A DNA stretch of 64,000 nucleotides, taken from assembly GCF_056712565.1 (NCBI RefSeq), contig NZ_CM160072.1; one strand, 5' to 3'. The position numbers and the translations under genes were made by a program. Below the pieces are notes generated by a model that saw only the letters and a list, made by a program, of their open reading frames with translations, was not told the DNA's origin and ran no database searches. This document shows, in pieces, positions 43,333 through 43,425 of this stretch. Numbering within the stretch: the stretch's first letter is position 1; each line of letters opens with the position of its first letter.

Positions 43333-43360
43333 AAAAAGGCGCTCCGTGGAGCGCCGAATA
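43333..43360. terminator. bidirectional rho-independent terminator between psiE and malG
   Basis: A-run, hairpin GGCGCTCC-GTG-GAGCGCC, between convergent psiE and malG. Confidence 0.7.
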
Positions 43361-43425
43361 ACAGTCACAAGTTGGGATAACGTAAGTTGAGGGTGCAGCG
43401 GCATAACATTGGCAGAACAACATCT

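What the first reader, a model, noticed from the sequence alone, without database searches (positions are those of the whole stretch)
43333..43425. xylE absent between psiE and malG
In K-12 the D-xylose:H+ symporter gene xylE lies between psiE and malG. Here psiE and malG are separated by only 93 bp containing a shared bidirectional terminator hairpin. Either xylE was never acquired in this lineage or was cleanly deleted. Low-affinity xylose uptake would then rely on XylFGH alone.
Basis: partly seen in the sequence, partly recalled or inferred. Interest (0 to 1): 0.3.

Follow-up and report, generated by a model that had tools for sequence, protein, structure and literature searches.

The report
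Ancestral xylE-free psiE–malG junction
This E. coli type-strain window lacks the xylose transporter gene xylE because the gene was most likely never inserted in its lineage, and the 93-bp gap is the known small RNA MalH, so the finding is an ordinary, common strain difference.

Summary
psiE (42922-43332, +) and malG (43426-44316, -) are 93 bp apart and no xylE lies in the window. The window is 100% identical to the E. coli type strain ATCC 11775 (phylogroup B2). Of 5,426 complete E. coli genomes, 1,786 share this junction and 3,638 carry xylE, so the two counts are almost exactly complementary. K-12 differs by a 1,797-bp block (xylE, its promoter region and its own terminator) placed between the psiE stop codon and the malG-side terminator. 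The empty site is most likely ancestral. E. albertii, E. whittamii, two other Escherichia species and most Enterobacteriaceae sampled have the same junction. xylE(+) E. coli form one clade (300/300 bootstraps). Three observed xylE disruptions all leave scars, and K. oxytoca shows an insertion footprint. The 93 bp is the MalH small RNA, 103/103 identical to K-12. The hairpin is MalH's terminator, with a T-run on the minus strand only. The physiological inference fails for this strain. XylE is the low-affinity system, xylFGH is intact, the activator gene xylR carries an 11-bp frameshift deletion, and the type strain is published as D-xylose-negative. The polymorphism is known and of low interest.

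The parts
42922..43332 (+). psiE CDS (phosphate-starvation-inducible protein, 136 aa). Its stop codon TAA is at 43330-43332.
   Evidence: ORF list. Annotated as psiE in the identical type-strain record.
43331..43335 (.). Empty attachment point. This is the 5-bp A-run within which the 1,797-bp xylE cassette of K-12 is inserted, so the exact junction is ambiguous within AAAAA.
   Evidence: Left homology to K-12 runs to 43335 and right homology starts at 43331.
43331..43433 (-). MalH small RNA locus (3'UTR-derived sRNA of malG). It overlaps the last 8 nt of malG and the last 2 nt of the psiE stop codon.
   Evidence: K-12 annotates ncRNA malH at the homologous position. The sequence is 103/103 identical. 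MalH is characterised in PMC8081044.
43331..43355 (-). Intrinsic terminator of malEFG/MalH: a GGCGCTC/GAGCGCC stem (within 43338-43355) followed by a T7 run (43331-43337) on the minus strand.
   Evidence: Terminator scan hit on the minus strand only. Fold. Across genera, 96.7% of cells are paired with 2 compensatory pairs.
43426..44316 (-). malG CDS (maltose ABC transporter permease).
   Evidence: ORF list. Annotation.
44331..47219 (-). malF and malE, the upstream genes of the malEFG operon whose 3' end gives rise to MalH.
   Evidence: ORF list. Annotation of the identical record.

Best explanation
The psiE-malG junction in this window is the ancestral, never-occupied form of the locus. In that form the psiE stop codon abuts the A/T-run and GC hairpin that terminate the convergent malEFG transcript, and the 93-bp 'gap' encodes the MalH sRNA. 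K-12 and about two thirds of E. coli carry a derived allele. In it, a 1,797-bp block (xylE, its AT-rich promoter region and its own terminator hairpin) was inserted exactly between the psiE stop codon and the MalH terminator, once, in the common ancestor of the xylE(+) strains. The direction (gain, not loss) is inferred from outgroups and the local tree. The mechanism of insertion and the donor are unknown. Lack of xylE removes only the low-affinity proton symporter. The high-affinity XylFGH system is encoded in nearly all E. coli.
For: The indel is 1,797 bp with a 5-bp A-run ambiguity, and the flanks are otherwise colinear. The junction is present in 1,786 of 5,426 genomes and xylE in 3,638, and xylE identity within E. 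coli is 97.3-100%. The same junction (psiE TAA, A-run, hairpin, conserved CAGTCACA core) occurs in E. whittamii, E. albertii, Escherichia sp. E1V33 and MOD1-EC7003, C. koseri, Enterobacter, Kluyvera and Klebsiella. On a local tree of 6.2 kb of flanks rooted with two other Escherichia species, xylE(+) strains (K-12, O157:H7, O26 and two others) are monophyletic in 300/300 bootstraps. Three observed xylE disruptions all leave scars: C. braakii keeps the xylE 3' end and promoter remnants in a 383-bp gap, strain TOE17 has an IS1-bounded deletion with a xylE 5' fragment, and strain 675SK2 has an IS1 inside xylE. K. oxytoca has a ~1.9-kb xylE insert flanked by a 16-bp duplication of the psiE 3' end, which is an insertion footprint. 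MalH is 103/103 identical to K-12.
Against: Synonymous divergence of xylE between E. coli and Citrobacter (dS ~1.07) is about the same as that of psiE and malG (0.6-1.25). That is also what long vertical residence followed by repeated loss would give, and no donor was identified. The cassette is bounded by A5 runs that could mediate a precise deletion. E. fergusonii, E. marmotae and Salmonella were not among the 80 loci returned, so those outgroups are untested. Whether xylE(-) E. coli are paraphyletic or a sister clade is unresolved (139/300 bootstraps). The tree uses only 10 E. coli strains and local sequence, and recombination could distort it.
Confidence: 0.85

Rival explanations
1. xylE was present in the ancestor and was cleanly deleted in the B2 lineage (and others) by recombination or slippage between the two A-runs that bound the cassette.
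For: A5 microhomology lies at both cassette ends in K-12. xylE dS between genera equals that of the flanks, which is compatible with ancient vertical presence at this site. xylE sits at the same site in three genera.
Against: This model needs the same base-precise deletion independently in E. albertii, E. whittamii, two more Escherichia species, several E. coli lineages, C. koseri, Enterobacter, Kluyvera, Klebsiella and others. The three observed disruptions are all scarred. xylE(+) E. coli are a single clade. K. oxytoca shows a target duplication typical of insertion.
Confidence: 0.1
2. The junction is an assembly artefact, or xylE has moved elsewhere in this genome.
For: None was found. The type-strain chromosome outside the window was not scanned in full for xylE.
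Against: 1,786 independently assembled complete genomes share the junction. Genomes with xylE (3,638) plus genomes with the junction (1,786) sum to 5,424 of 5,426, with a median of one xylE place per genome and no divergent copies below 97% identity. No xylE-like sequence is in the window. The published phenotype of the strain is xylose-negative.
Confidence: 0.02
3. The hairpin is a true bidirectional terminator that serves psiE as well as malEFG/MalH.
For: The hairpin starts 6 nt after the psiE stop codon in all the empty-site taxa examined. No other terminator-like element follows psiE. K-12 psiE is likewise followed only by a hairpin that has a T-run on the opposite strand.
Against: On the plus strand the stem is followed by GAATAACAG with no U-run, and the consensus scan reports the site on the minus strand only. 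The A-run upstream is simply the complement of MalH's U-tract.
Confidence: 0.3

Closest known systems
K-12 psiE-xylE-malH-malG locus (NC_000913.3 4240325-4243516)
   Same: psiE, MalH and malG are colinear and 98.6-100% identical. MalH and its terminator are base-for-base identical.
   Different: K-12 has an extra 1,797 bp holding xylE, its promoter region and a second hairpin between psiE and xylE. Here the psiE stop codon directly abuts, and overlaps by 2 nt, the MalH 3' end.
MalH, the 3'UTR-derived Hfq-associated sRNA of malG (Iosub et al., RNA Biol 2020, PMC8081044)
   Same: The position relative to malG, the sequence and the Rho-independent terminator are all the same.
   Different: All MalH experiments were done in K-12, where xylE separates it from psiE. 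Here a convergent gene ends inside its terminator T-run. Expression and processing in this strain are untested.
Reported xylE presence/absence polymorphism among E. coli phylogroups (Gonzalez-Alba et al., BMC Genomics 2019, PMC6896753)
   Same: That paper lists xylE as a gene gained within the E/B1/A lineage and not part of the B2 side, which agrees with gain rather than loss.
   Different: It places the gain in the A/B1 sublineage. Here O157:H7 also carries the cassette and groups with the other xylE(+) strains, so the gain looks older or was spread by recombination. The junction, the MalH overlap and the outgroup sites were not described there.

Membership tests
XylE D-xylose:H+ symporter gene at the psiE-malG site | An MFS sugar-porter ORF homologous to K-12 XylE lies between psiE and malG | tested here: not met
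   The gap is 93 bp. tblastn of XylE against the whole window gives best E = 1.6, and the cassette DNA gives no match.
MalH sRNA | Lies on the malG strand, begins within the last codons of malG and covers its 3'UTR | tested here: met
   Window 43331-43433 (-) is homologous to K-12 ncRNA malH b4807.
MalH sRNA | Sequence, including the seed region, matches characterised MalH | tested here: met
   103/103 identical to K-12.
MalH sRNA | Ends in a Rho-independent terminator | tested here: met
   A 7-bp GC stem plus T7 on the minus strand. The stem is conserved with compensatory changes in 26 taxa.
MalH sRNA | Released by RNase E processing, binds Hfq, represses ompC/ompA and lowers MicA | not testable with these tools
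   Shown only experimentally, in K-12 (PMC8081044).
Bidirectional intrinsic terminator | GC-rich hairpin between convergent genes | tested here: met
   Hairpin at 43338-43355.
Bidirectional intrinsic terminator | U-run after the stem in both transcription directions | tested here: not met
   T7 on the minus strand. On the plus strand the stem is followed by GAATAAC. The scan reports the minus strand only.
Ancestral (unoccupied) insertion site | The same junction architecture occurs in outgroup species | tested here: met
   E. albertii, E. whittamii, Escherichia sp. E1V33 and MOD1-EC7003, and many other genera.
Ancestral (unoccupied) insertion site | Carriers of the insert form a derived clade | tested here: met
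   xylE(+) strains are monophyletic in 300/300 bootstraps on 6.2 kb of flanks, with 10 E. coli strains sampled.
Ancestral (unoccupied) insertion site | No remnant of the insert at the site | tested here: met
   The junction is TAAAAAAAGGCGC, as in E. albertii, with no cassette-derived bases.

The most novel reading that the evidence does not exclude
In the ancestral arrangement kept here, psiE has no terminator of its own with a U-run. psiE transcripts induced by phosphate starvation could therefore read through the hairpin and be antisense to MalH and the malG 3' end. That would couple the Pho response to maltose and porin regulation in xylE-less lineages, and the xylE insertion would have removed this coupling in K-12, where all MalH work was done. 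Separately, the psiE/MalH junction may be a recurrent landing site for the xylE block, because the right-hand junction differs in E. coli, Citrobacter and K. oxytoca.
Probability: 0.1. Interest if true: 0.45.

Novelty: already known. Interest (0 to 1): 0.15.

Why it matters
It matters little on its own. It is a common presence/absence difference affecting one third of E. coli genomes, and xylE is a redundant low-affinity transporter. Three points are useful. The K-12 gene order is the derived state, not the reference state. The 'empty' spacer holds a functional sRNA gene that raw-sequence reading overlooked. In the species' type strain, the xylose-negative phenotype is better explained by a strain-specific xylR lesion than by the missing xylE.

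Tried and rejected
- An Rfam scan of 42000-45000 at E <= 1 found nothing, because MalH is not an Rfam family. It was identified from the K-12 annotation instead.
- I tried to label the xylE(-) non-B2 strains by phylogroup. Reference strain UMN026 (NC_011751.1) is not in the collection. A 5.6-kb flank search returned 60 identical but uninformatively named strains. Phylogroups other than B2 (type strain), A (K-12), E (O157:H7) and B1 (O26) are therefore not assigned.
- I looked for a donor of the E. coli cassette with a XylE protein search. Clustering at 90% hides close relatives, and the next clusters are 88% identical or less, so no donor was identified.
- I tested for recent horizontal transfer by dS. 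xylE is as diverged between genera as its flanks, so recent transfer between the sampled genera is rejected.
- Literature searches found no paper linking xylR to the type strain's xylose-negative phenotype and no direct xylE-deletion growth paper.
- Mis-assembly and relocation of xylE were considered and rejected on population counts.

Full report
**Observation.** psiE occupies 42922-43332 on the plus strand. malG occupies 43426-44316 on the minus strand. The gap 43333-43425 is exactly 93 bp. It contains a GC-rich hairpin at 43338-43355. No XylE-like coding sequence and no DNA of the K-12 xylE block occurs anywhere in the 64-kb window.

**Source and population frequency.** Window 42800-43900 is 100% identical to E. 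coli ATCC 11775 = DSM 30083, the species' type strain. That strain is serotype O1:K1:H7 and phylogroup B2 (PMC4334874). Of 5,426 complete E. coli genomes, 1,786 have the contiguous psiE-malG junction. 3,638 carry xylE, nearly always as one copy at 97.3-100% identity. The two counts sum to 5,424, so junction-type genomes essentially never carry xylE elsewhere. This excludes mis-assembly. The type-strain chromosome was not scanned individually for xylE outside the window.

**Indel boundaries.**
- Homology to K-12 runs from the left to window position 43335 and from the right starting at 43331.
- K-12 therefore has an extra 1,797 bp (L001 1440-3236), with a 5-bp AAAAA ambiguity at the junction.
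- The block holds a hairpin that terminates xylE, the xylE gene (49.6% GC) and 276 bp of AT-rich upstream region (34.4% GC).

**What the 93 bp is.** K-12 annotates a small RNA, MalH (b4807), from 8 nt inside malG to the end of the terminator T-run.
- The homologous stretch in the window, 43331-43433 on the minus strand, is 103/103 identical.
- MalH is a 104-nt RNase E-processed 3'UTR fragment of malG with a Rho-independent terminator. It represses ompC and ompA and lowers MicA (PMC8081044).
- The 'spacer' is therefore an sRNA gene, and the hairpin is its terminator.
- The terminator scan finds the site on the minus strand only (T7). On the psiE strand the stem is followed by GAATAAC.
- Across 26 taxa the 7-bp stem is paired in 96.7% of cells. 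Two positions show compensatory changes in 14 cells, and none of 500 shuffles reach the observed score. Two Klebsiella rows are out of register in that alignment.
- Rfam has no MalH family.

**Gain or loss.** A PsiE-based scan of one genome per species returned 80 loci. The evidence favours gain:
- psiE and malG are adjacent, without xylE, in E. whittamii, E. albertii, Escherichia sp. E1V33 and MOD1-EC7003, C. koseri, C. amalonaticus, Enterobacter, Kluyvera, K. pneumoniae, K. michiganensis, Raoultella and others.
- In most of these the architecture is the same: psiE stop codon, A-run, GC hairpin, then a conserved CAGTCACA core. The E. albertii junction (GAGTAAAAAAAGGCGCTCC) matches the window base for base up to the hairpin loop.
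- xylE sits at this same site only in several species of the C. freundii complex and in K. oxytoca.
- A neighbour-joining tree was built on 4 kb of left flank and 2.7 kb of right flank from ten E. coli strains, rooted with two other Escherichia species. K-12, O157:H7, O26 and two other xylE(+) strains form one clade in 300/300 bootstraps. The five xylE(-) strains fall outside it.
- Three observed xylE disruptions all look different from the window. C. braakii keeps the xylE 3' end and promoter fragments in a 383-bp gap. Strain TOE17 has an IS1-bounded deletion that leaves a xylE 5' fragment. Strain 675SK2 has an IS1 inside xylE.
- K. oxytoca has a ~1.9-kb insert flanked by a 16-bp duplication of the psiE 3' end. 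The native copy (GAA TAA) is displaced next to the MalH terminator, which is an insertion footprint.

**Caveats on polarity.**
- xylE dS between E. coli and Citrobacter (~1.07) equals that of the flanks (0.6-1.25). There is therefore no sign of recent transfer, and the donor is unknown.
- The A5 runs at both cassette ends could in principle mediate a precise deletion.
- E. fergusonii, E. marmotae and Salmonella were not among the loci returned.
- I rate 'ancestral empty site, single gain in the xylE(+) clade' at about 0.85 and 'clean deletion' at about 0.1.
- A published pan-genome reconstruction also lists xylE as gained, but in the A/B1 sublineage (PMC6896753). O157:H7 carries the cassette too, so the gain appears older than that paper states.

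**Physiology.** XylE is the low-affinity transporter (Km 63-169 uM) and XylFGH the high-affinity one (Km 0.2-4 uM) (PMC10989795).
- xylFGH is present in 5,419 of 5,426 genomes.
- In the type-strain record, xylF, xylG, xylH, xylA and xylB are intact and have the K-12 lengths.
- The activator gene xylR is annotated as frameshifted. It has an 11-bp deletion at K-12 nucleotides 1119-1129, which replaces the last 19 residues with 10 unrelated ones.
- The lesion removes the last ~10 profile positions of the AraC-type HTH domain. The HTH_18 match shrinks from 309-384 to 309-374, and the score falls from 74.4 to 58.8 bits.
- The allele is real. It occurs in 11 of 5,422 genomes, including a second assembly of the type strain (JCM 20135) and strain S88.
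- The type strain is reported as D-xylose-negative in Kauffmann's description, in OmniLog plates and in M9 medium, whereas K-12 is positive (PMC4334874). That paper does not mention xylR or xylE.
- A third of E. coli genomes lack xylE but only 11 carry this xylR allele. The xylR lesion is therefore the more likely cause of the phenotype. This is an inference and has not been tested.

**Comparison and verdict.** The locus is the known psiE-malH-malG arrangement minus the xylE block, and the polymorphism has been noted before. Nothing here is a new kind of element. The modest additions are the polarity argument, the recognition that the gap is MalH, and the side observation on xylR. Interest is low (0.15). 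The most novel reading not excluded is that psiE, which lacks a U-run terminator, reads antisense into MalH in xylE-less lineages. I give that about 0.1 probability.

Noticed in passing
Outside the window: NZ_CP033092.2 143289-144456 (L094 13290-14457, - strand): xylR of the type strain has an 11-bp deletion (K-12 nt 1119-1129) that truncates the AraC-type DNA-binding domain. The allele occurs in 11 of 5,422 genomes (including JCM 20135, S88, MS7163 and the EV36 family). The type strain is published as D-xylose-negative, and no paper found links the two.
   Followed up: partly
L068 (K. oxytoca NBRC 105695) 6397-6412 and 8308-8323: A 16-bp direct duplication of the psiE 3' end flanks a ~1.9-kb xylE insert.
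   Followed up: partly
L022 (C. braakii ATCC 51113) 6412-6796: xylE is internally deleted. The 383-bp gap keeps the xylE terminator, the 3' end of the gene and promoter-region fragments. This is an example of a scarred loss, in contrast to the clean site in the window.
   Followed up: partly
L091 (E. coli TOE17) 5249-6248: An IS1-bounded deletion has removed yjbE-yjbH, psiE and most of xylE, leaving a 249-bp xylE 5' fragment next to malG. Strain 675SK2 has an IS1 inside xylE.
   Followed up: no
L001 3150-3231 compared with L016 8110-8160 and L068 8150-8307: The right-hand end of the xylE block differs between lineages. It runs directly into the MalH terminator in Citrobacter, has ~55 extra bp in E. 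coli, and has ~150 extra bp in K. oxytoca. This suggests separate integration events or later rearrangement.
   Followed up: partly
L007 (C. amalonaticus), L023 (Kluyvera georgiana), and L066, L067 and L081 (Klebsiella), psiE-malG gaps: Some taxa have 170-190-bp gaps holding extra palindromic, REP-like sequence, either between psiE and the MalH terminator or within the MalH body. The MalH 5' half is therefore much less conserved than its terminator and CAGTCACA core.
   Followed up: no
PMC6896753 compared with L087 (O157:H7) 6001-7476: The published statement that xylE was gained in the A/B1 sublineage does not fit the presence of an intact cassette in phylogroup E O157:H7 strains.
   Followed up: partly
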